Source: an uncultured Actinomycetes bacterium | GTDB taxonomy: Bacteria > Actinomycetota > Actinomycetes > S36-B12 > CAIYMF01 | Assembly: GCA_963843975.1 (NCBI GenBank) | Contig: CAWJMG010000003.1 | Location: 1,950,001-1,982,000 of the forward strand | Length of the DNA stretch: 32,000 nt | Reading direction: 5' to 3' | In this document: in pieces, positions 13,530 to 25,730 of the stretch | Numbering within the stretch: the first letter of the stretch is position 1 | How the letters are laid out: each line of letters opens with the position of its first letter | The notes under the pieces: generated by a model | What the model was told of the DNA's origin: nothing | What the model saw: only the letters and a program-made list of their open reading frames with translations | The model's database searches: none | Position numbers and translations under genes: made by a program

Positions 13530-13601
13530 CTACCCGGCGCGGGAAACGTCGGCGTTCTCAACTGGTAGTTGCACGTGGTCTTGTGCAGCTTGGAGGTTGG
13601 G

Positions 13602-14648
13602 ATGCCTGGAGCGAGGTTGACCGAGCACGACCGTGGGGTGATCGAGCGGGCCATGCGGCAGGGGTTGTCTGTGCCGCAGATCGCCGAACTGGTGGGCAAG
13701 CACCGCACCACCGTGGCGCGTGAGTTGTCGCAAGGCTCTGGGTCGCGCCCCAATCGCAGGCCCAAGCATCCGGCGGGGTCGGCGCGCCGCGGGACCCGAG
13801 GACGCTCTGCGGTCTATCACGCCTGGGTCGCTCAGGCCCGGGCCACGGAGTCGGCTCGGCGGCCGAAGGGTTTCAAGCTCGCCGGGGACCTGGGGCTGGT
13901 GGTGTCGGGGCTGCTTCAGGCGAACTGGTCCCCGCAGCAGATTGCCCAGCGGTTGCCCGAGCTCTATCCCGACCAGGACGGTATGAGGGTGAGCCACGAG
14001 ACGATCTATCGGTCACTGTTCGTGCAGGCTCGCGGCGAGCTTCGCCGCGAGCTGGCCAAGCATCTGCGCACCGGGCGGACCAGCCGCAAGCCGCAGGGAC
14101 GTAAGGAGACCCGCGGCAAGCTGGTCGGCACCATCCCGATCAGCGCTCGGCCGGCTGAGGCCGCTGACCGTGCCGTTCCGGGCCATTGGGAGGGCGACCT
14201 GCTGATGGGCGGGATCGGCAAGGGCGCTGTGATCACTCTGGTCGAGCGGTCGACCAGGTTCGTGCTGCTCGCTCCGCTGCCCGACACCCACAAGGCGATC
14301 GACCTCCAAGAGGTCCTCACCCCGCTGATCGCCTCACTGCCCGACCAGATCCGCAAGACCCTGACCTGGGACCGGGGCAAGGAGATGGCCCAGCACGCGG
14401 CGATCGCCATCGAAGCGGACATCGACATCTACTTCGCCGACCCGCACTCACCCTGGCAACGAGGCAGCAACGAGAACACCAACGGGCTGCTGCGTCAGTA
14501 CTGGCCCAAGGGCGCCGACATGCGCGGACTGACCCAGGCCGACTGCGACGCCGTCGCCCCCAGCCTCAACACCCGACCGCGCATGACCCTGGACTGGAAG
14601 ACTCCCCGCGAGGCCCTCACCGAGGTCCTCGGTGCAACAGCCGCTTGA
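13602..14648 (+). CDS. IS30-family DDE transposase
   Basis: 348 aa. N-terminal HTH (LSVPQIAELVGKHRTTVAREL) and catalytic region HWEGDLL...TWDRGKEM...WQRGSNENTNGLLRQYWPKG (D, D, E) characteristic of IS30. ATG 13602 is preceded by GGAGG (13592-13596). Confidence 0.92.
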   Translation: MPGARLTEHDRGVIERAMRQGLSVPQIAELVGKHRTTVARELSQGSGSRPNRRPKHPAGSARRGTRGRSAVYHAWVAQARATESARRPKGFKLAGDLGLVVSGLLQANWSPQQIAQRLPELYPDQDGMRVSHETIYRSLFVQARGELRRELAKHLRTGRTSRKPQGRKETRGKLVGTIPISARPAEAADRAVPGHWEGDLLMGGIGKGAVITLVERSTRFVLLAPLPDTHKAIDLQEVLTPLIASLPDQIRKTLTWDRGKEMAQHAAIAIEADIDIYFADPHSPWQRGSNENTNGLLRQYWPKGADMRGLTQADCDAVAPSLNTRPRMTLDWKTPREALTEVLGATAA

Positions 14649-18846: not shown

Positions 18847-19825
18847 TCACGCCTCCGGTGCTTCGAACGACTTCGTGCGGGCCATGCCGGCCGCGCGACC
18901 CTTGGCCGAGATCACGAGCGCCATCTTGCGGCTGGCCTCGTCGATCATCTCGTCGCCGAGCATGACCGCACCTCGGGCGCCGCCCTCGGCGGAGGTGTAG
19001 TAGTCGTACGCGTCGAGGATCAGCTCGGCGTGGTCGTAGTCCTCCTGCCGCGGCGAGTAGACCTCGTTGGCGGCGTCGACCTGGCCGGGGTGCAGCACCC
19101 ACTTGCCGTCGAAGCCCAGTGCCGCGGACCGGCCCGCCACGCGCTTGTAGCCCTCGACGTCCTTGATCTGCAGGTACGGCCCGTCGATCGCCAGCTTGTC
19201 GTACGCGCGGGCCGCCATGAGGATCTGCATCAGGATGTAGTGGTACGCGTCGCCGACGTCGTAGCCCTGCGGCTGCTCGCCGACCACCAGCGACTTCATG
19301 TTGATGCTCGCCATGAAGTCGGCCGGGCCGAAGATGATCGTCTCGACCCGCGTGCGAGGCCGCGGCGATCGCGTTGACGTTGGTGAGGCCGAGGGCGTTC
19401 TCGATCTGCGCCTCGATGCCGATGCGGCCGACCTCGAAGCCCATCGTCTTCTCGATCTGCGTCAGCAGCAGGTCCAGCGCGACGACCTGCTCGGCCGTCT
19501 GCACCTTCGGCAGCATGATGCAGTCGAGGTTCTGGCCGGCGTTCTCCACGACCTCGACGACGTCGCGGTAGGTCCAGTGCGTCGTCCAGTCGTTCACGCG
19601 GACCGTGCGCACCTTGCCGTCGTACCCGCCCTCGTTCAGCGCGGCCACGATGTTCTTGCGCGCGTCGGGCTTGGCGAGGGGCGCGACGGCGTCCTCGATG
19701 TCCATGAAGACCTGGTCCGCAGGCAGGCCCTTGGCCTTCTCCAGCATCTTCGGCGAGGAACCGGGCACGGCCAGGTTCGAGCGGCGGGATCGCAGAACGC
19801 GGGCGGGGTAGCTCATGGAGGCCAC
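18847..19825 (-). pseudogene. CitE/HpcH-family (malyl-CoA-lyase-like) gene interrupted by a +1-nt frameshift at about 19346-19354
   Basis: The N-terminal 158 codons (frame of ATG 19825: ...RSNLAVPGSSPKMLEKA...DIEDAV...IEAQIENALGLTNVNAIAAAS) and the C-terminal part (frame of stop 18847: RVETIIFGPADFMASINMK...GFDGKWVLHPGQV...) are both CitE-like but offset by one nucleotide. The total span of 979 nt equals 3n+1. Deleting one C of CCC 19347-19349, or T19353, restores a 325-aa ORF. Confidence 0.8.
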
Positions 19826-20880: not shown

Positions 20881-22164
20881 ATGAGCGGAGCGCCGACGAG
20901 GGTCTTCATCGCCCGCCTCGCCGGCATCGCGGTCTTCGACCCCCGCGGGGACCAGGTCGGCAAGGTGCGCGACGTCGTCGTCACGCTCCGGCACGGCAGC
21001 AACGCCCCCCGCGTGCTCGGCCTCGTCGTCGAGGTGCAGCCCCGCCGCCGAATCTTCTGCCCGATGACCCGCGTCACGAACATCAGCGAGGGCGCCGTCG
21101 TCACGACCGGCCTGCTCAACATGCGCCGGTTCGAGCAGCGGCCGTCCGAGACCCTCGTGCTGTCCGAGCTGTTCGACAAGCGGGTGACGCTCCTCGAGAC
21201 CGGCGAGCAGGTCACGGTGCAGGACGTCGGGATCCGCCAGGAGCGCACCCGCGACTGGTCGGTCGAGAAGATCTTCGTCCGCAAGGGCGGCAGCGGCTTC
21301 CGTCGTCGCGGCGAGACCGTCGTCGTCGAGTGGGACGCCGTCTCCGGCCTGACGCTGCCCGATCCCGAGCAGGGTGTCGTCAGCCTGCTCGCGACGGTCG
21401 AGAAGCTCCGCGCGGCCGACCTCGCCAACGTCATGCAGGAGCTGACGCCCAAGCGCCGCATCGAGCTCGCCGCCGCCCTCGACGACGAGAAGCTGGCCGA
21501 CGTCCTCGAGGAGCTGCCCGAGGACGACCGCGTCGAGATCGTCGCCGCGCTCGAGGGCGAGCGCGCCGCCGACGTCCTCGAGGAGATGGACCCGGCCGAC
21601 GCCGCCGACCTGCTGTCCGAGCTGCCGCCCGAGACGGCCGAGGCGATCCTGTCGCTCGTCGAGCCCGAGGACGCCGAGGACCTGCGCCGCCTGCTCAGCT
21701 ACGACGACTACACCGCCGGCGGCATGATGACGCCGGAGCCGGTGATCCTGCCGCCCGACTCCACCGTCGCCGAGGCGCTCGCGCGCGTGCGCGACCAGGA
21801 CCTCTCCCCCGCGCTGGCCGCACAGGTGTACGTCGTTCGGGCGCCGTTCGAGACGCCGACCGGCAAGTACCTCGGGGTCGCGCACTTCCAGCGCCTGCTC
21901 CGCGAGCCTCCGTCGAGCCTCGTGTCCGCCGTCCTCGACGACGCCCTGGAGCCCATCGGCCCCGAGGCGCCGCTGAGCCAGGTGACCCGCTACTTCGCGA
22001 CGTACAACCTCGTCGCGATCCCGGTGGTCGACGAGAACGACCACCTGCTCGGAGCGATCACGGTCGACGACGTCATCGACCACATGCTCCCCGAGAACTG
22101 GCGCGACGCCGACAACGACCCGGACGCCACGCACGACGAGGAGGAGGTGACCCATGGCGCGTGA
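20881..22164 (+). CDS. soluble MgtE-like sensor protein: PRC-barrel-like N-terminus, MgtE N-domain and CBS pair, with no membrane domain
   Basis: 427 aa. An acidic helical repeat (LRAADLANVMQELTPKRRIELAAALDDEKLADVLEELPEDDRVEIVAAL...AADLLSELPPETAEAIL) resembles the MgtE N-domain. It is followed by two CBS-like units (MTPEPVILPPDSTVAEAL...; LVAIPVVDENDHLLGAITVDDVIDHM). No TM segment is present. Confidence 0.8.
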   Translation: MSGAPTRVFIARLAGIAVFDPRGDQVGKVRDVVVTLRHGSNAPRVLGLVVEVQPRRRIFCPMTRVTNISEGAVVTTGLLNMRRFEQRPSETLVLSELFDKRVTLLETGEQVTVQDVGIRQERTRDWSVEKIFVRKGGSGFRRRGETVVVEWDAVSGLTLPDPEQGVVSLLATVEKLRAADLANVMQELTPKRRIELAAALDDEKLADVLEELPEDDRVEIVAALEGERAADVLEEMDPADAADLLSELPPETAEAILSLVEPEDAEDLRRLLSYDDYTAGGMMTPEPVILPPDSTVAEALARVRDQDLSPALAAQVYVVRAPFETPTGKYLGVAHFQRLLREPPSSLVSAVLDDALEPIGPEAPLSQVTRYFATYNLVAIPVVDENDHLLGAITVDDVIDHMLPENWRDADNDPDATHDEEEVTHGA

Positions 22165-22720
22165 CCGCGACGAGCGCCGCGGGCCGCGCCTCGACCAGCC
22201 GTCCGAGCGCGGGGTCTCGCTGCGCCCGTCGGTCGACCCCGAGCGCGTGGGCCGCGTCAGCGAGCGCATCGCCCGCTTCCTCGGCTCCTGGCGCTTCATC
22301 GGCTACATGTCGGCGTTCATCATCATCTGGGTCGTCTACAACCTCGGGCCGTGGACCAAGCCCGACCCGTTCCCGTTCATCTTCCTCACGCTGCTGCTGT
22401 CGCTGCAGGCGTCGTACGCCGCGCCCCTGATCCTGCTCGCGCAGAACAGGCAGGCCGACCGCGACCGCATCCAGTACCAGGACGATCGCGCCCGGACCGA
22501 CCGGCTCATCGCGGACACCGAGTACCTCATGCGCGAGGTCGCGTCCCTGCGCGTGGCCCTCGGCGAGGTCGCCACCCGCGACTACATCCGCAGCGAGCTG
22601 CGCGACCTCCTCGACGACCTCGACGAGCGCGAGCACAAGCAGCGGGCCAAGAAGAAGAAGGCCGGCAAGCCCGAGCTCGGCGAGGCCACCGAGGCCGAGG
22701 CCGACCTCGACGTGGTGTGA
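22154..22720 (+). CDS. DUF1003-family membrane protein
   Basis: 188 aa. RFLGSWRFIGYMSAFIIIWVVYN...PFPFIFLTLLLSLQASYAAPLILLAQNRQADRD is the DUF1003 signature as I recall it, followed by a coiled-coil/basic tail. ATG 22154 overlaps the upstream gene by 11 nt and is preceded by GAGGAGG (22141-22147). Confidence 0.8.
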   Translation: MARDRDERRGPRLDQPSERGVSLRPSVDPERVGRVSERIARFLGSWRFIGYMSAFIIIWVVYNLGPWTKPDPFPFIFLTLLLSLQASYAAPLILLAQNRQADRDRIQYQDDRARTDRLIADTEYLMREVASLRVALGEVATRDYIRSELRDLLDDLDEREHKQRAKKKKAGKPELGEATEAEADLDVV

Positions 22721-22758: not shown

Positions 22759-22781
22759 CCAGAACTGCCGATGCCCTCTGA

Positions 22782-24464
22782 GTGAGCGTCCACCACCTGT
22801 CGGTCGAGCCGCCCCGGCGTCCCCGCCTGGGCGACGTCCTCCTGCGGCTCGGGATGCTCGACCACCCCGCCCTGGCGACCGCGCTCGAGGCGCGACTGGC
22901 CACCGGCGGCGGCACCCGGCTGGGCCGGGTCGTGCTCGACCTCGGCCTCGTGACCGAGGACGAGCTTGCCCGCGCCCTCGCCGTCCAGCTGGTGCTGCCC
23001 CTCGTCGACCTCGCCACGACGCCCCTCGACCCCGACGTGGCCCGGTCCGTCCCCCGGGACCTCGCCGAGCGCGAGCTGGTCGTGGCCTTCGCCCGGCGCG
23101 GCGGCCGGCTCGCCGTGGCCGCCGTCGACCCGTCCGACGGGGTGCTGCTGTCGGAGATCAGGGCCCGCGCCGGGGCCACGGCGCTCGAGGTGCACGTCGC
23201 CACCGAGAGCGGCGTGCGCGCAGCCCTGGCGAGCGTCTGGGACGGCGCAGCACCGGACCTGCCAGCAGCCTCCACGGACCTCCGGAGCCCGGACGACGCC
23301 GAGACGGTCCAGCTCGTCGACCGGCTCCTCATCGACGCCGTGCACGCGCGCGCGACCGAGCTGCTCGTGGACCCGCAGCGCGACGGCCTGCACGTGCGCC
23401 TCCGCGTCGACGGGGTCCTGCGGCACCACATGACCCTCCCTCTCACCGGGTCGAGCGCGATCGTCGACTGGCTCAAGGCCATGGCCCACCTCGACGTGGA
23501 CGAGGCCCGGCTCCCGCAGGAGGGCCGAGCGGTCGTGCTCGTGCAGGGCGACAGCGTCGGCCTGCGGGTCGCCACGATCCCCGGCTCCGCCGGCGAGCAG
23601 GTCGTCGTGCGCCTGCGCCCGGCCTCGACCAGCCTGCCGTCGCTGGACTCCCTCGGCCTCTCAGGCGCGCAGCAGCAGGTGGTGCTGGACGCGCTCGGCC
23701 GGCGCAACGGCATGGTGCTCGTCGTCGGCCCGGTCGGCGCCGGCCGTACCCACACGCTCCACGCCCTCGCCGCCGGTGGCCTCGAGCCCGGGCGCAGCCT
23801 CGTCGCGGTCGAGGACCCGGTCGAGGCCGCCGTGCCCGGCGCCACCCTGCTTCCCGTCGACACCACCGCAGGTGCGACGTACGCCGAAGCGCTCCACGAC
23901 GCTGTGGAGCGCCGGCCCGACGTCGTGCTCGTCGGCGACATCGGCGACCGCGACACCGCACCCGCCGCGGTGCACGCCGCCGCGGGCGACCAGCTGGTGC
24001 TCTCGACCATGCTGGCCGTCGACGCCGCCGATGCCCTGGTGCGCCTCGTGCGGCTCGGCGTCCCCGCGGCCCAGGTCGCGGAGACCGTCGGCGTCGTGCT
24101 CTCCCAGCGGCTCGTCCGCACGCCGTGCCGCGAGTGCGCGGCCGGCCACGACCCCGACCCGTACCTCCTCGCCACGCTGTGGGTCACCGACCCGCGCGGC
24201 ACCTGGGTCGAGGCGCACGGCTGCCTCGCCTGCTCCGGCACCGGCTACCGCGGCCGCACCGCCGTGGTCGAGCTGCTCGAGGTCGGCCCCGAGGTGCGAC
24301 AGGCCCTGGTCGAGACCGACGACGAGGCCGCGGTGCGCACGGCCGCACGGGCCGCGGGCACCCGCTCGATGCGCGAGCAGGCCGTCGAGCTCGCCCGTCG
24401 CGGCGGCACGACCCTCGAGGAGATCGTCCGCGCCGTCCCCGACGACCCCGACCACTCCTCCTAG
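22782..24464 (+). CDS. PilB/GspE/MshE-like protein: MshEN (T2SSE_N) domain plus a secretion-ATPase core with degenerate catalytic motifs
   Basis: 560 aa. The N-terminus has two 24-residue RLGxxhhxxGhhxxxxLxxxLxxQ repeats (RLGDVLLRLGMLDHPALATALEAR and RLGRVVLDLGLVTEDELARALAVQ). The core has the GspE layout (LIDAVHARATELLVDP..., LRVDGVL, EDPVE, tetracysteine CRECAAG...CLACSGTGYRGR). However, Walker A is GPVGAGRT, Walker B is DVVLVGDIGD, and the His-box is AGDQLVLSTMLA. Confidence 0.85.
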   Translation: MSVHHLSVEPPRRPRLGDVLLRLGMLDHPALATALEARLATGGGTRLGRVVLDLGLVTEDELARALAVQLVLPLVDLATTPLDPDVARSVPRDLAERELVVAFARRGGRLAVAAVDPSDGVLLSEIRARAGATALEVHVATESGVRAALASVWDGAAPDLPAASTDLRSPDDAETVQLVDRLLIDAVHARATELLVDPQRDGLHVRLRVDGVLRHHMTLPLTGSSAIVDWLKAMAHLDVDEARLPQEGRAVVLVQGDSVGLRVATIPGSAGEQVVVRLRPASTSLPSLDSLGLSGAQQQVVLDALGRRNGMVLVVGPVGAGRTHTLHALAAGGLEPGRSLVAVEDPVEAAVPGATLLPVDTTAGATYAEALHDAVERRPDVVLVGDIGDRDTAPAAVHAAAGDQLVLSTMLAVDAADALVRLVRLGVPAAQVAETVGVVLSQRLVRTPCRECAAGHDPDPYLLATLWVTDPRGTWVEAHGCLACSGTGYRGRTAVVELLEVGPEVRQALVETDDEAAVRTAARAAGTRSMREQAVELARRGGTTLEEIVRAVPDDPDHSS

Positions 24465-24470
24465 TCCTCC

Positions 24471-24530
24471 GAGTTACTGCCCACAGTGGGGCTCTCGGGC
24501 GTCCGATAGCCCCGCTTTGGGCAGTAACTC
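24471..24530. repeat. 60-nt near-perfect inverted repeat / long stem-loop between the gspE-like gene and mrp
   Basis: GAGTTACTGCCCA (24471-24483) is the exact reverse complement of TGGGCAGTAACTC (24518-24530). Inner pairing AGT/GCT and GGGGCT/AGCCCC extends the stem to about 22 bp around a 14-nt loop. It is locally AT-richer than its surroundings, and lies 6 nt after the TAG of the upstream gene and 60 nt before the mrp ATG. Confidence 0.7.
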
Positions 24531-24590
24531 ACGTCCTAGCGGGGCGGAGGCGGGTCTGCCGGGTGGGCAGTGCGCACGTAGCATCGGGGC

Positions 24591-25730
24591 ATGTCCCAGA
24601 CGCTGCTCGACCTGATCGACGCTGCCCTCGCGACCGTCGAGGACCCCGAGATCCACCGTCCGATCACCGACCTCAAGATGGTGAAGTCGCGCGAGGTCGT
24701 CGACGGCGTGGCCACGGTCGCGATCTGGCTCACGGTGTCCGGCTGCCCGATGCGCGACACGATCACGAACCGCGTGGTCGAGGCCGTCGGAGCCGTGCCC
24801 GGCGTCACCAGCGTGCAGGTCGAGCTCGACGTCATGGACGAGGAGCAGCGCAAGGAGCTGCGCGCCTCGCTGGTCGGCCACGACGAGCGCGAGATCATCT
24901 TCGCCAAGCCCGGCAACCTCACCCGGGTGTACGCCGTCGCCTCGGGCAAGGGCGGCGTCGGCAAGTCCTCGGTCACGGCCAACCTCGCGGTGTCGATGGC
25001 GATGCAGGGGCTCACCGTCGGCCTCGTCGACGCCGACATCTACGGACACTCGATCCCGCGCCTGCTCGGCGCCACGGACGCGCCGACCATGGTCGAGGGC
25101 ATGATCATGCCGCCTCAGGCGTACGGCGTCCGCGTCATCTCGATGCTGCCGTTCAAGCCGGGCGGCGTCTCGCAGCCGGTCGCCTTCCGCGGACCGATGC
25201 TGCACCGCGCGCTGCAGCAGTTCCTCGCCGACGTCTGGTGGGGCGACCTCGACGTCCTCCTCCTGGACCTCCCGCCCGGCACCGGCGACGTCGCCATCTC
25301 CACCGCGCAGCTGCTGCCGAAGGCCGAGCTGATCGTCGTGACGACGCCGCAGACCGCGGCCGCAGAGGTCGCGATCCGCGCGGGGATGCTCGCGCAGCAG
25401 ACCAACCAGCGCCTGGCAGGCGTCGTCGAGAACATGTCGTCGTTCCCCTGCCCCCACTGCGGTGAGCCGATGGACCTGTTCGGCACCGGCGGCGGCCAGA
25501 TGGTGTCGGAGACGCTCACCCGCGAGCTCGGCACCGACGTGCCGCTCCTCGGCCGCGTGCCGTTCGACGTGCGCCTGCGCGAGGGCGGCGACAACGGCAC
25601 GCCGCTCGTGGCGTCGGACCCCGACGCCCCCGCGTCCACCGTGCTCACCGAGATCGCGACCCGGCTCGGCACGCGGGCGCGCGGCCTCGCCGGCCTCTCG
25701 CTCGGAATCACCCCTGCAGCGCGCTTCTGA
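24591..25730 (+). CDS. mrp: Mrp/ApbC/NBP35-family Fe-S cluster carrier ATPase with an N-terminal DUF59 (MIP18-like) domain
   Basis: The N-terminus (ALATVEDPEIHRPITDLKMV...WLTVSGCPM) is DUF59-like. It is followed by the deviant Walker A VASGKGGVGKSSVTANLA, LVDADIYGHSIP, LLLDLPPGTGD and the CPHCG cluster-ligand motif. Confidence 0.92.
   Translation: MSQTLLDLIDAALATVEDPEIHRPITDLKMVKSREVVDGVATVAIWLTVSGCPMRDTITNRVVEAVGAVPGVTSVQVELDVMDEEQRKELRASLVGHDEREIIFAKPGNLTRVYAVASGKGGVGKSSVTANLAVSMAMQGLTVGLVDADIYGHSIPRLLGATDAPTMVEGMIMPPQAYGVRVISMLPFKPGGVSQPVAFRGPMLHRALQQFLADVWWGDLDVLLLDLPPGTGDVAISTAQLLPKAELIVVTTPQTAAAEVAIRAGMLAQQTNQRLAGVVENMSSFPCPHCGEPMDLFGTGGGQMVSETLTRELGTDVPLLGRVPFDVRLREGGDNGTPLVASDPDAPASTVLTEIATRLGTRARGLAGLSLGITPAARF

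What the first reader, a model, noticed from the sequence alone, without database searches (positions are those of the whole stretch)
22782..24464. Orphan MshEN-type c-di-GMP receptor domain fused to a PilB/GspE ATPase core whose catalytic motifs are all degenerate
Seen in the translation:
- The N-terminus carries two copies of the 24-residue MshEN motif RLGxx(L/V/I)(L/V/I)xxG(L/V/I)(L/V/I)xxxxLxxxLxxQ.
- Copy 1 is RLGDVLLRLGMLDHPALATALEAR (nt 22824-22895; only the final Q is changed, to R).
- Copy 2 is RLGRVVLDLGLVTEDELARALAVQ (nt 22917-22988; a perfect match).
- The two copies are separated by a 7-residue Gly-rich linker.

This motif pair is the c-di-GMP-binding determinant described for Vibrio MshE and related type II/IV secretion ATPases.

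The C-terminal core is clearly GspE-like: it has the EDPVE Asp-box and the C-x2-C...C-x2-C zinc motif. Every ATP-handling motif is altered, however:
- Walker A is GPVGAGRT. The invariant Lys is replaced by Arg (codon CGT 23745-23747).
- Walker B is DVVLVGDIGD, against the canonical D-I-I-M-V-G-E-I-R-D. The catalytic Glu is Asp and the Arg is Gly (23919-23948).
- The His-box is AGDQLVLSTMLA, against T-G-H-L-V-L-S-T-L-H-T. Both His residues are lost.

No PilC/GspF platform, PilM/N/O, secretin or pilin genes are in the window. The gene sits between a DUF1003/MgtE-like pair and mrp.

Inference: this is a pseudo-ATPase retained as a c-di-GMP sensor or scaffold rather than a pilus or secretion motor. 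I do not know this architecture as a characterised system.
Basis: partly seen in the sequence, partly recalled or inferred. Interest (0 to 1): 0.75.

Follow-up and report, generated by a model that had tools for sequence, protein, structure and literature searches.

The report
Catalytically dead PilB-like ATPase relative
This gene encodes a pilus/secretion-motor-type ATPase that has lost every residue needed to burn ATP but is still kept intact by selection. It changed rapidly from a normal ATPase found at the same spot in a close relative, so it is probably a regulator rather than a motor.

Summary
ORF 22782-24464 is a real 560-aa MshEN + PilB/GspE-type protein, and profile, PDB and structural alignments fix the register. 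Walker A Lys is Arg, Walker B Glu is Asp and its Arg is Gly, and both His-box histidines are lost. The Asp box, arginine fingers and C4 zinc site are kept.

New findings:
- The losses are shared by about 10 metagenomic orthologues (70-94% identity) that evolve under purifying selection (dN/dS 0.13-0.35). This is a pseudo-ATPase, not a pseudogene.
- The orthologue at the same locus in Longivirga aurantiaca has fully canonical motifs but is only 57% identical, while its neighbours are 93-99% identical. Silent sites show no deep split, so the change was a fast burst concentrated in the ATPase core.
- Other close relatives lack the gene.
- The position (MgtE_N/CBS - DUF1003 - gene - mrp, no pilus genes) predates the degeneration and holds across distant Actinobacteria.
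- c-di-GMP motif copy 2 is intact here but broken in most other members of the degenerate clade. The "c-di-GMP sensor" reading is therefore plausible for this protein but not a property of the clade.

Verdict: a new variant of a known kind, of moderate interest.

The parts
22782..24464 (+). Gene for a 560-aa MshEN + PilB/GspE-type pseudo-ATPase. The GTG start is conserved in orthologues.
22824..22988 (+). MshEN_N c-di-GMP motif pair (residues 15-69). Copy 1 is RLG...EAR, copy 2 is RLG...AVQ, and the spacer is the 7 residues LATGGGT.
   Evidence: The NF053729 hit is above its cutoff. The region aligns to MshE 5HTL and to Geobacter PilB, which show the same spacing. It was tested against the strict and relaxed motifs of PMC5013675.
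22995..23234 (+). MshEN_C / GSPII subdomain (residues 72-151).
   Evidence: Pfam PF05157 hit; pLDDT 77-92.
23307..23651 (+). N2D domain (about residues 176-290), including the retained arginine-finger segment RLPQEGR (residues 243-249; canonical sequence RLPQDGR).
23727..23750 (+). Degenerate Walker A, GPVGAGRT (Lys322 replaced by Arg, Thr318 replaced by Val).
23808..23825 (+). Asp box VEDPVE, retained.
23919..23948 (+). Degenerate Walker B, DVVLVGDIGD (catalytic Glu386 replaced by Asp, Arg388 replaced by Gly).
23982..24017 (+). Degenerate His box, AGDQLVLSTMLA (His404 replaced by Gln, His411 replaced by Leu).
24126..24233 (+). Tetracysteine zinc motif (C449, C452, C481, C484). It lies within the C-terminal region (residues 446-555), which is the slowest-evolving part of the protein in the degenerate clade.
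   Evidence: The four cysteines are invariant columns.
22771..22785 (+). Conserved 4-codon mini-ORF (ATG CCC TCT GAG TGA). Its TGA stop overlaps the GTG start as GTGA. No Shine-Dalgarno sequence is present.
   Evidence: The ATG, the length and the overlap are conserved in seven loci while the inner codons vary.
24471..24530 (+). A 60-nt hairpin 7 nt after the stop codon, probably a terminator without a U tract. It separates this gene from mrp.
   Evidence: RNA minimum free energy -54.3 kcal/mol, z-score -7. The outer arms are conserved and the inner stem changes on both strands, which looks compensatory on inspection (not counted), across six loci.
24579..24584 (+). A -10-like TAGCAT hexamer 6 nt upstream of the mrp ATG, giving mrp its own, probably leaderless, promoter. 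It is also present in loci that lack the ATPase gene.
20881..22164 (+). Upstream neighbour: a cytosolic PRC/SH3 - MgtE_N - CBS protein.
   Evidence: conserved adjacency
22154..22720 (+). Upstream neighbour: a DUF1003 membrane protein that overlaps the MgtE_N gene by 11 nt.
24591..25730 (+). Downstream neighbour: the Mrp/ApbC Fe-S cluster carrier ATPase.

Best explanation
The gene encodes a hydrolysis-dead descendant (pseudo-ATPase) of an actinobacterial MshEN-PilB/GspE-type ATPase, and selection keeps it intact. That ATPase has long sat on its own between DUF1003 and mrp.

Shown:
- The fold, zinc site, Asp box, P-loop glycines and threonine, and arginine fingers are kept.
- The Walker A Lys, the Walker B Glu and Arg, and both His-box histidines are replaced. 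About 30 other core positions that are conserved in canonical relatives are replaced as well.
- These changes are fixed in a small clade of uncultured Sporichthyaceae/Nanopelagicales-like bacteria close to Longivirga.
- They arose in a short burst from a canonical orthologue, after which purifying selection resumed.

Inferred:
- The protein no longer powers anything. It acts as a ligand-binding regulator or scaffold.
- In this particular protein the N-terminal MshEN motif pair can probably still bind c-di-GMP. The crippled P-loop may still bind, but not hydrolyse, a nucleotide.
- Output probably goes through the strongly conserved C-terminal zinc domain, or through oligomer surfaces, to an unidentified partner. 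This would resemble the way hydrolysis-deficient Myxococcus PilB still signals to exopolysaccharide production.
For: Register and fold of the motifs are settled.

The losses are shared.
- All of P0001-P0009 carry GPVG[AS]GRTHT and VGD[ILV]G[DA] and lack both histidines.
- P0010-P0026 carry GPTGSGKT, VGE[IV]RD and TGHLVLSTLHT.

Purifying selection acts within the degenerate clade.
- dN/dS is 0.13 (W vs L087), 0.16 (W vs L088), 0.26 (L089 vs L002) and 0.35 (W vs L002). The canonical pair gives 0.14.
- The five loci whose DNA was read have intact ORFs.

The clade has acquired new constraints.
- At 38 positions, canonical relatives are at least 88% conserved and the degenerate clade never keeps that residue. 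At 20 of these the clade is fixed on one new residue.
- 34 of the 38 lie in residues 188-436 and none lies in 446-555.
- The C-terminal region has dN 0.05-0.08 within the clade, against 0.158 in the canonical pair.

The change was accelerated and fast.
- Tajima relative-rate test: 113 unique changes against 23 (chi-squared 59.6). The canonical control gives 18 against 22.
- The stem branch has 92 non-synonymous and 50 synonymous changes (dN/dS 0.63), against 0.11-0.15 within the clade; Fisher p = 6e-7.
- The dN tree has a stem of 0.164, whereas the dS tree is star-like.
- At four-fold degenerate sites, the distance from degenerate alleles to Longivirga (0.32-0.41) is no greater than the distance among degenerate alleles (0.39-0.43).
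- With Longivirga as reference, this is the only gene of 14 where the more distant genome L005 is more similar (83%) than the nearer ones (57-59%).

Precedent. M. xanthus PilB K327 and E391 are required for ATPase activity, yet the K327A variant still drives EPS signalling (PMC5544727).

c-di-GMP motif. Both copies in this protein pass the relaxed motif of Wang et al. 2016, and copy 2 passes the strict one.
Against: - No biochemical data exist. Lys to Arg and Glu to Asp preserve charge, so residual nucleotide binding or slow hydrolysis cannot be excluded.
- c-di-GMP motif copy 2 is damaged in most other clade members. Ligand sensing through MshEN is therefore not the conserved function.
- The gene is dispensable. 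Two close relatives, L091 and L092, have DUF1003 followed directly by mrp.
- The faster rate could reflect partly relaxed constraint rather than a new function.
- No partner or output is identified.
- Silent sites are near saturation at GC3 of about 0.96, so the timing of the burst is only roughly bounded.
Confidence: 0.62

Rival explanations
1. It is still a working, if deviant, ATPase motor. The conservative Lys-to-Arg and Glu-to-Asp changes would leave enough activity to drive a pilus or secretion machine encoded elsewhere in the genome.
For: - The P-loop glycines, Thr323, the Asp-box glutamates, the arginine fingers R243 and R249, and the zinc site are all invariant.
- The PilB fold is predicted with confidence.
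- Canonical orthologues are equally isolated from pilus genes. A distant partner locus is therefore possible for the family as a whole.
Against: - Five catalytic residues are replaced together, and both His-box histidines go to non-equivalent residues (Gln, Leu).
- About 30 further core positions have shifted.
- The Pfam T2SSE score falls to 273 bits, against 382-437 bits for canonical relatives of the same length.
- The Walker A Lys and Walker B Glu are required for PilB activity (PMC5544727).
- The ATPase core evolves 2-4 times faster than in canonical orthologues.
Confidence: 0.1
2. It is a gene on its way out. Function was lost, constraint relaxed, and the ORF simply has not been disrupted or deleted yet.
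For: - Amino-acid evolution is about five times faster than in the canonical orthologue.
- Both the ATP motifs and c-di-GMP motif copy 2 are eroded in the clade.
- Close relatives have lost the gene entirely.
- Two other lineages degenerated independently: P0108 and P0187.
Against: - ORFs are intact in the five degenerate-clade loci read as DNA, which are separated by near-saturating silent divergence; further clade members are known only as called proteins.
- dN/dS is 0.13-0.35 overall, and 0.11-0.15 on well-resolved codons.
- Twenty replaced positions are fixed on a single new residue.
- The C-terminal domain is more conserved than in canonical orthologues.
- The start codon, the upstream mini-ORF and the terminator hairpin are all conserved.
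Confidence: 0.12
3. It is not an orphan. It works together with its two upstream neighbours, the MgtE_N-CBS protein and the DUF1003 membrane protein, as a three-gene module. The module might be a nucleotide- or Mg2+-responsive membrane complex in which DUF1003 replaces the usual platform protein.
For: - The order MgtE_N/CBS - DUF1003 - ATPase holds in every locus of at least 39% identity except L007. This includes distant lineages whose neighbours are only 59-73% identical.
- It also holds in L004 and L009, where other genes separate the ATPase from mrp.
- The three genes share a strand and are closely spaced. A terminator hairpin follows only the ATPase gene.
Against: - The MgtE_N-DUF1003 pair occurs without the ATPase in close relatives L091 and L092.
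- The ATPase (REC-fused form) occurs without the pair in L007.
- Divergence of DUF1003 and MgtE_N does not follow the canonical versus degenerate state of the ATPase.
- The adjacency can be explained by inherited gene order in a conserved core region.
Confidence: 0.2
4. It is a non-catalytic competitor or brake for an active PilB/PilT-type machine encoded elsewhere. It would occupy the platform or form mixed hexamers, possibly in response to c-di-GMP.
For: - The oligomeric fold and the C-terminal domain are conserved.
- In this protein the c-di-GMP motifs are intact.
- As a general precedent, inactive Walker-box mutants of pilus ATPases still take part in machine function (review PMC11656802).
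Against: - No pilus genes were seen in any of the loci examined.
- Genome-wide content could not be tested.
- The canonical ancestor has no known machine either.
Confidence: 0.15

Closest known systems
Vibrio cholerae MshE, and the PilB proteins of Geobacter, Myxococcus and Thermus (PilF): MshEN-domain type IV pilus extension ATPases
   Same: - Same domain order: MshEN_N motif pair, MshEN_C, N2D, a RecA-like CTD and a C4 zinc site.
- 30-34% identity in the alignments to solved PilB/PilF/GspE structures (Foldseek).
- Structural match with TM 0.89.
- The motif pair fits the published c-di-GMP motif.
   Different: - All hydrolysis residues (Walker A Lys, Walker B Glu and Arg, both His-box histidines) are replaced.
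- It scores far below the PilB and GspE equivalog cutoffs: 329 against 676 bits, and 321 against 630 bits.
- It is not encoded with pilC, pilM or pilin genes.
The canonical orthologue at the same locus: Longivirga aurantiaca GspE/PulE family protein (P0010, GCA_042660085.1) and its relatives P0011-P0026
   Same: - Same chromosomal position and gene order.
- Same start-codon context, upstream mini-ORF and terminator hairpin.
- Same overall length.
- Motif 1 ends in Arg in both.
   Different: - The canonical proteins keep GPTGSGKT, VGEIRD and TGHLVLSTLHT.
- Identity is only 57%, although neighbouring genes are 93-99% identical.
- More distant members of this group carry C-terminal double-zinc-ribbon and/or receiver (REC) domains.
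Myxococcus xanthus PilB acting as a signalling protein (PilB K327A, Walker A mutant)
   Same: A PilB that cannot hydrolyse ATP still has a biological output, namely regulation of EPS. It also carries c-di-GMP-binding MshEN motifs (PMC5544727, PMC6957770).
   Different: That is a laboratory mutant of a genuine pilus motor in a pil operon. Here the loss is natural, involves many sites and is fixed in a clade. The output is unknown.
Degenerate-enzyme c-di-GMP receptors such as FimX (degenerate GGDEF-EAL)
   Same: The concept is the same: a catalytic domain loses its activity and the protein is kept as a binding or regulatory module (review PMC11656802).
   Different: The fold and the ligand site are different. 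Here the c-di-GMP site lies in a separate N-terminal domain, and it is not conserved across the clade.

Membership tests
PilB/GspE/MshE secretion-ATPase family (Pfam T2SSE PF00437) | Sequence and fold membership: N2D plus a RecA-like CTD. | tested here: met
   T2SSE 4e-81, 273 bits. Foldseek to PilF/PilB gives E about 1e-39 and TM 0.89.
PilB/GspE/MshE secretion-ATPase family | Walker A GxxGxGK[ST] with the invariant Lys. | tested here: not met
   The sequence is GPVGAGRT, with Arg322 aligned to the Lys of PilB and PilF.
PilB/GspE/MshE secretion-ATPase family | Atypical Walker B hhhhGE(I/V)RD with the catalytic Glu. | tested here: not met
   The sequence is VVLVGDIGD: Glu386 is Asp and Arg388 is Gly.
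PilB/GspE/MshE secretion-ATPase family | His box TGHLVLSTLHT with two histidines. | tested here: not met
   The sequence is GDQLVLSTMLA: His404 is Gln and His411 is Leu.
PilB/GspE/MshE secretion-ATPase family | Asp box (EDPxE) and tetracysteine zinc site. | tested here: met
   VEDPVE is present, and C449, C452, C481 and C484 are invariant.
Type IV-A PilB (TIGR02538) and T2SS GspE (TIGR02533) equivalogs | Score at or above the curated equivalog cutoff. | tested here: not met
   328.7 bits against 675.65, and 321.2 bits against 630.25.
Type IV pilus / T2SS motor (functional system) | Encoded with, or accompanied in the genome by, a PilC/GspF platform, PilM/GspL, and pilins or pseudopilins. | tested here: inconclusive
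   None appear in the 32-kb window or within 6-10 kb on each side (less where a contig ends) in 12 homologous loci. Whole genomes could not be searched.
Type IV pilus / T2SS motor (functional system) | ATP hydrolysis. | not testable with these tools
   Needs an enzyme assay. The sequence predicts loss of activity.
MshEN c-di-GMP receptor domain | Domain-level match (Pfam MshEN, NCBIfam c-di-GMP_motif). | tested here: met
   PF05157 at 60.3 bits. NF053729 at 40.5 bits against a cutoff of 38. MshE 5HTL matches at E = 5e-13.
MshEN c-di-GMP receptor domain | Two tandem 24-residue motifs, RLGxx(L/V/I)(L/V/I)xxG(L/V/I)(L/V/I)xxxxLxxxLxxQ. | tested here: met
   Copy 2 matches the strict motif. Copy 1 matches the relaxed motif of PMC5013675, with the terminal Gln replaced by Arg. 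The spacer is 7 residues rather than 5, as in Geobacter PilB.
MshEN c-di-GMP receptor domain | Motif conserved among orthologues, which would imply a selected function. | tested here: not met
   Copy 2 reads RLS in L088, ends in Leu in P0003, P0004 and L089, and reads PLS or PLR with a terminal Leu in P0005-P0008. A substitution at the equivalent Gly of copy 1 (G11I) abolishes binding in MshE.
MshEN c-di-GMP receptor domain | Actual binding of c-di-GMP. | not testable with these tools
   Needs DRaCALA, ITC or DSF.
Pseudoenzyme (a member of an enzyme family that lacks catalytic motifs but is maintained) | Catalytic motifs lost together with evidence of purifying selection. | tested here: met

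The most novel reading that the evidence does not exclude
A natural, clade-fixed, hydrolysis-dead PilB. It would have been produced by a short adaptive burst (stem dN/dS above 1) from a working orphan ATPase, and it would now act as a second-messenger- or nucleotide-responsive switch with no filament machine. The same locus exists in three states among near relatives: canonical, pseudo-ATPase and absent. If true, this would be the first natural pseudo-ATPase lineage in the PilB/GspE family. It would also show that the signalling role seen in Myxococcus PilB mutants can become the sole function of such a protein.
Probability: 0.3. Interest if true: 0.7.

Novelty: new variant of a known kind. 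Interest (0 to 1): 0.52.

Why it matters
PilB/GspE/MshE ATPases are normally thought of only as motors. Work on Myxococcus suggested that PilB also signals independently of hydrolysis, but that evidence rests on engineered mutants.

A naturally fixed, selection-maintained, hydrolysis-dead orthologue would provide a ready-made separation-of-function pair. Its canonical counterpart sits at the same locus in a cultured relative, Longivirga aurantiaca. The pair could be used to ask two questions: what the non-motor function is, and what the widespread "orphan" MshEN-PilB-like ATPases of Actinobacteria do at all.

It is also a clean example of how a pseudoenzyme is born. There is a fast burst confined to the catalytic core, followed by renewed constraint that shifts to another domain.

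There are practical consequences too. Annotation pipelines call these proteins "type IV pilus assembly protein PilB" or "GspE/PulE family protein". That name would wrongly imply piliation or secretion capacity in these freshwater Actinobacteria.

Tried and rejected
- The genome-contig scan with the protein returned only one irrelevant proteobacterial fragment.
It returned mostly generic PilB loci (37% identity or less) and missed the closest relatives. It was useful only as a negative control for the neighbour trio, plus four extra trio-clade loci (L007-L010).
- Rfam found no RNA family in the window.
- PADLOC found no defence-system match.
- The sigma-70 promoter scan found nothing, as expected for this GC content.
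- I first suspected an ancient allelic dimorphism or in-situ horizontal replacement, because the flanking-gene trees disagree with the ATPase tree. I rejected this. Silent-site distances between degenerate and canonical alleles are no larger than those within the degenerate clade.
- I suspected that NUDIX and DUF2332 were missing or pseudogenised at 15.3-17.0 kb. tblastn shows both are present; my GC filter had simply dropped them.
- Strict regex matching of the MshEN motif proved a poor classifier. Canonical relatives also fail it at a hydrophobic position. I therefore relied on the six key residues per copy instead.
- Literature searches for a described PilB/GspE pseudo-ATPase, for DUF1003 function and for Longivirga pili found nothing relevant.
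- Presence of pilus genes or GGDEF/EAL genes elsewhere in the genome could not be tested with the available tools.
Full report

Yes. Window 22782-24464(+) is one open frame of 560 codons with GC3 0.96, in a window of 72.6% GC. Family searches give:
- Pfam T2SSE at 4e-81 (residues 171-550) and MshEN at 1.9e-16 (residues 72-151).
- NCBIfam short c-di-GMP-motif domain NF053729 at residues 15-69, just above its cutoff (40.5 against 38 bits).

HMMER alignments to solved PilF, PilB and GspE structures settle the register:
- GPVGAGRT lies opposite GPTGSGKT.
- PDVVLVGDIGD lies opposite PDIIM(I/V)GEIRD.
- AGDQLVLSTMLA lies opposite LTGHLVLSTLHT.

The Walker A Lys, the Walker B Glu and Arg, and both His-box histidines are therefore truly replaced. 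The Asp box, the RLPQxGR arginine-finger segment and the four zinc cysteines are kept.

An AlphaFold2 model built from a 26-sequence alignment is confident (pLDDT 84.7). Only the N-terminal 11 residues and a linker at 156-170 are disordered. It superposes on PilF and PilB cores at TM 0.89 and 2.7-2.8 A.

The N-terminal 159 residues match PilB, PilF and MshE N-domains, including MshE 5HTL at E = 5e-13. Geobacter PilB shows the same 7-residue spacing between the two motif copies.

**2. Is it more than an oddity of one sequence?**

A search of 5.8 billion proteins found nine clusters at 70-94% identity (P0001-P0009, about 25 member sequences, all metagenomic). One is labelled a Candidatus Nanopelagicales MAG. 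All carry the same losses: GPVG[AS]GRTHT, VGD[ILV]G[DA], and no histidine at either His-box position.

The next relatives are canonical at every motif. These are P0010-P0016 (46-58% identity, including Longivirga aurantiaca) and P0017-P0026 (37-42%).

Among the 150 nearest representatives of a 1.84-billion-protein library, 142 keep Lys/Glu/His/His and none has the full set of losses. Two other lineages show partial, independent degeneration:
- P0108 is encoded next to a stand-alone receiver protein.
- P0187 is from another high-GC actinobacterium.

**3. Genomic setting**

The window carries no pilus or secretion partner gene. The local gene order is EamA(-), PRC/SH3-MgtE_N-CBS, DUF1003, this gene, mrp/apbC, APH, YjbR(-), TatB(-), HtrA(-), LmeA(-), RseB-like(-).

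This is a conserved actinobacterial core region. Every relative of at least 39% identity whose context could be read sits at the same place. That covers canonical Longivirga (L001), L005, a Nanopelagicales MAG (L003), REC-fused forms (L004, L007, L009), L008, L010, and the degenerate L002, L087, L088 and L089. The 76 generic PilB loci from the metagenome scan have no such neighbours.

The "orphan" position is therefore old and is shared by catalytically intact orthologues.

The link to the MgtE_N/DUF1003 pair looks positional rather than obligatory:
- L007 has the ATPase and mrp but not the pair.
- Two close relatives (DUF1003 84% and 79% identical) have MgtE_N-DUF1003-mrp with no ATPase gene and no remnant.

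Three states thus coexist at one locus among near relatives: canonical, degenerate and absent.

Transcription signals:
- A 60-nt hairpin (-54 kcal/mol, z = -7) follows the stop codon. Its inner stem changes on both strands in different loci, which looks compensatory.
- mrp has its own TAGCAT -10 element 6 nt before its ATG. The gene is therefore not co-transcribed with mrp.
- Upstream, a 4-codon mini-ORF whose TGA overlaps the GTG start is conserved in seven loci.

**4. Is it decaying or maintained?**

Pairwise NG86 dN/dS values are:

| Comparison | dN/dS |
|---|---|
| W vs L087 (degenerate clade) | 0.13 |
| W vs L088 (degenerate clade) | 0.16 |
| L087 vs L088 (degenerate clade) | 0.21 |
| L089 vs L002 (degenerate clade) | 0.26 |
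| W vs L002 (degenerate clade) | 0.35 |
| L001 vs L005 (canonical pair) | 0.14 |
| MgtE_N and Mrp (neighbours) | 0.03-0.17 |

Full-length ORFs with the conserved GTG start are intact in all five degenerate loci read as DNA.

At 38 alignment positions, canonical relatives are at least 88% conserved and the degenerate clade never keeps that residue. At 20 of these the clade is fixed on a single new residue (for example R188H, R204H, R230W, T318V, K322R, Y327H, E386D, R388G, H411L, D424R). Of the 38, 34 lie in N2D and the CTD core (188-436) and none lies in the C-terminal 446-555.

Per-domain rates show that constraint has moved:

| Region | dN, degenerate clade | dN, canonical pair |
|---|---|---|
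| ATPase core | 0.14-0.25 | 0.064 |
| MshEN_N | 0.14-0.23 | 0.079 |
| C-terminal zinc region | 0.05-0.08 | 0.158 |

This is the signature of a protein that changed its job, not of one that lost all function.

**5. How it arose**

I used Longivirga aurantiaca as the reference and compared 14 shared genes. Thirteen are as similar or more similar in the window, L002 and L089 than in the more distant L005. Examples are HpcH 99%, ACAD 99%, MgtE_N 96% and Mrp 93%. Only the ATPase inverts this pattern: 57-59% against 83%. It is as far from its degenerate neighbours as from the orthologue in a different family-level lineage (58%).

Supporting tests:
- Tajima's relative-rate test with P0017 as outgroup gives 113 lineage-specific changes in the window protein against 23 in Longivirga (chi-squared 59.6). 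The canonical-versus-canonical control gives 18 against 22.
- Parsimony-resolved codons give 92 non-synonymous and 50 synonymous changes on the stem (dN/dS 0.63), against 0.11-0.15 within the clade (Fisher p = 6e-7).
- The neighbour-joining tree from dN has a long degenerate-clade stem (0.164). The tree from dS is star-like and does not place Longivirga outside the degenerate alleles.
- At 186 four-fold sites in invariant-residue codons, degenerate-to-Longivirga distances (0.32-0.41) do not exceed distances within the degenerate clade (0.39-0.43). The difference is -0.033, 95% CI -0.077 to 0.013.

Silent sites are close to saturation at this GC3, so this only gives a bound. It does imply that the stem was short in time, and that amino-acid change on it ran several times faster than afterwards. 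Nominally this means stem dN/dS above 1, which needs a formal branch-site test. An ancient second allele or an in-situ horizontal replacement is not supported.

**6. What about c-di-GMP?**

Wang et al. 2016 (PMC5013675) define two 24-residue motifs with six key residues each. They also give a relaxed pattern, [RKPN]hGxxhhxx[GAS]hhxxxxhxxxhxx[QNKRYWST]. In that work G11I abolishes binding and L10A weakens it 36-fold.

In the window protein, copy 2 fits the strict motif. Copy 1 fits the relaxed one: its terminal Gln is Arg, which is also true of the canonical Longivirga group. Binding is therefore plausible here.

Across the degenerate clade, however, copy 2 erodes:
- RLS in L088, which is 92% identical to the window protein.
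- A terminal Leu in P0003, P0004 and L089.
- PLS or PLR plus a terminal Leu in P0005-P0008.

The closest canonical group (P0010-P0015) keeps all six key residues of copy 2; more distant canonical relatives (P0016-P0021) also lose its terminal Gln, so the changes specific to the degenerate clade are those at the Arg and Gly of RLG. c-di-GMP sensing is therefore not the property that selection holds constant in this clade.

**7. Most likely mechanism**

Shown: the protein has the PilB fold, lacks the hydrolysis residues, is under selection, and is derived from a canonical orthologue.

Inferred:
- It cannot act as a motor.
- It retains a P-loop pocket (glycines, Thr323, Asp-box glutamates, Arg243 and Arg249). 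That pocket may still bind nucleotide.
- In this particular sequence it probably binds c-di-GMP.
- It passes information on through the conserved C-terminal zinc domain or through oligomer surfaces.

The nearest precedent is M. xanthus PilB. There K327 and E391 are required for ATPase activity and piliation, yet the K327A protein still switches on EPS production. The nucleotide-free conformation was proposed as the signalling state (PMC5544727).

The partner here is unknown. Candidates are a machine encoded elsewhere, or, less likely, the MgtE_N-CBS/DUF1003 neighbours.

**8. Comparison with known systems, and novelty**

By fold and architecture it belongs to the PilB/GspE/MshE family. It fails three of that family's defining catalytic features and both equivalog cutoffs. 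It should therefore not be filed as a PilB or GspE motor.

The literature searches found no described natural pseudo-ATPase of this family and no study of this actinobacterial orphan clade. That is absence in the open-access library searched, not proof.

I rate it a new variant of a known kind.

Interest is moderate (0.52):
- In its favour, the evolutionary pattern is clean, and a cultured canonical counterpart makes it testable.
- Against it, the clade is small and uncultured, the function is unknown, the gene is dispensable in relatives, and the headline "c-di-GMP sensor" inference is only partly supported.

Noticed in passing
window 24471-24530: A 60-nt near-perfect hairpin lies 7 nt after the ATPase stop codon (RNA MFE -54.3 kcal/mol, z = -7). 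The outer arms are conserved, and the inner stem changes on both strands in a way that looks compensatory (judged by eye, not counted) across L087, L088, L002, L001 and L005. It has no U tract and is probably an actinobacterial-style terminator or an mRNA-stabilising element.
   Followed up: partly
window 22771-22785: A conserved 4-codon mini-ORF (ATG-N8-GTGA) whose TGA stop overlaps the GTG start of the ATPase gene. The ATG, the length and the overlap are kept in seven loci while the inner codons vary (MPSE, MLSE, MHPG, MLPE, MSPS, MPPR). No Shine-Dalgarno sequence is present. This may be termination-reinitiation coupling.
   Followed up: partly
window 24579-24593: A TAGCAT hexamer lies 6 nt upstream of the mrp ATG. 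It is conserved in all loci, including those that lack the ATPase gene (L091 has TAGCAT, L092 has TAGGAT). This suggests a leaderless mrp transcript.
   Followed up: partly
window 18850-19816 (-): The HpcH/HpaI (CitE-like) gene is split by a single frameshift near 19351. Both halves are 99.4% identical in protein to the intact 322-aa Longivirga aurantiaca gene. This is either a very recent pseudogene or an assembly error.
   Followed up: partly
window 13569-14648 (+): An ORF with HTH_38 and rve integrase domains, which looks like a transposase, lies between the MarC and DUF6758 genes. It is absent from the corresponding place in Longivirga (L001).
   Followed up: no
between YjbR and TatB: L001 14519-20512, L088 6382-12269, L089 14467-20455: A variable island carrying an ECF-type sigma factor, a small protein, a TPR-CHAT protein and an S8 peptidase is present in L001, L088 and L089. 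It is absent from the window and from L002. An MFS_3 transporter gene between EamA and MgtE_N is also present or absent among these genomes.
   Followed up: no
L009 12395-14473: In one distant relative, a bacteriorhodopsin-like gene and a beta-carotene dioxygenase (retinal synthesis) gene lie between the REC-fused ATPase gene and mrp.
   Followed up: no
P0108 locus (JGI 3300047160, no DNA available) and L090 666-2417 (P0187): Two independent, partly degenerate PilB-like proteins. P0108 has GPAGSGRT, VGDMRD and SGRLVLSTMHT, overlaps a stand-alone receiver gene by 4 nt, and sits beside a glycosyltransferase. P0187 has GPAGSGRS, an Asp box reading EDATG, and no histidines. Loss of catalysis seems to recur in orphan members of this family.
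   Followed up: partly
L004 8001-10322, L007 9959-12154, L009 9839-12259; also P0020, P0021, P0025: Canonical members of the same locus-linked clade carry C-terminal double-zinc-ribbon and/or response-regulator receiver domains. This hints that the ancestral orphan ATPase is itself under signalling control.
   Followed up: partly
window 20881-22720 and orthologues: Trees for DUF1003 and Mrp pair the window group with L005, and L002 with L001. Trees for MgtE_N pair L089 with L001. This incongruence among adjacent genes suggests recombination within this group of close relatives.
   Followed up: partly
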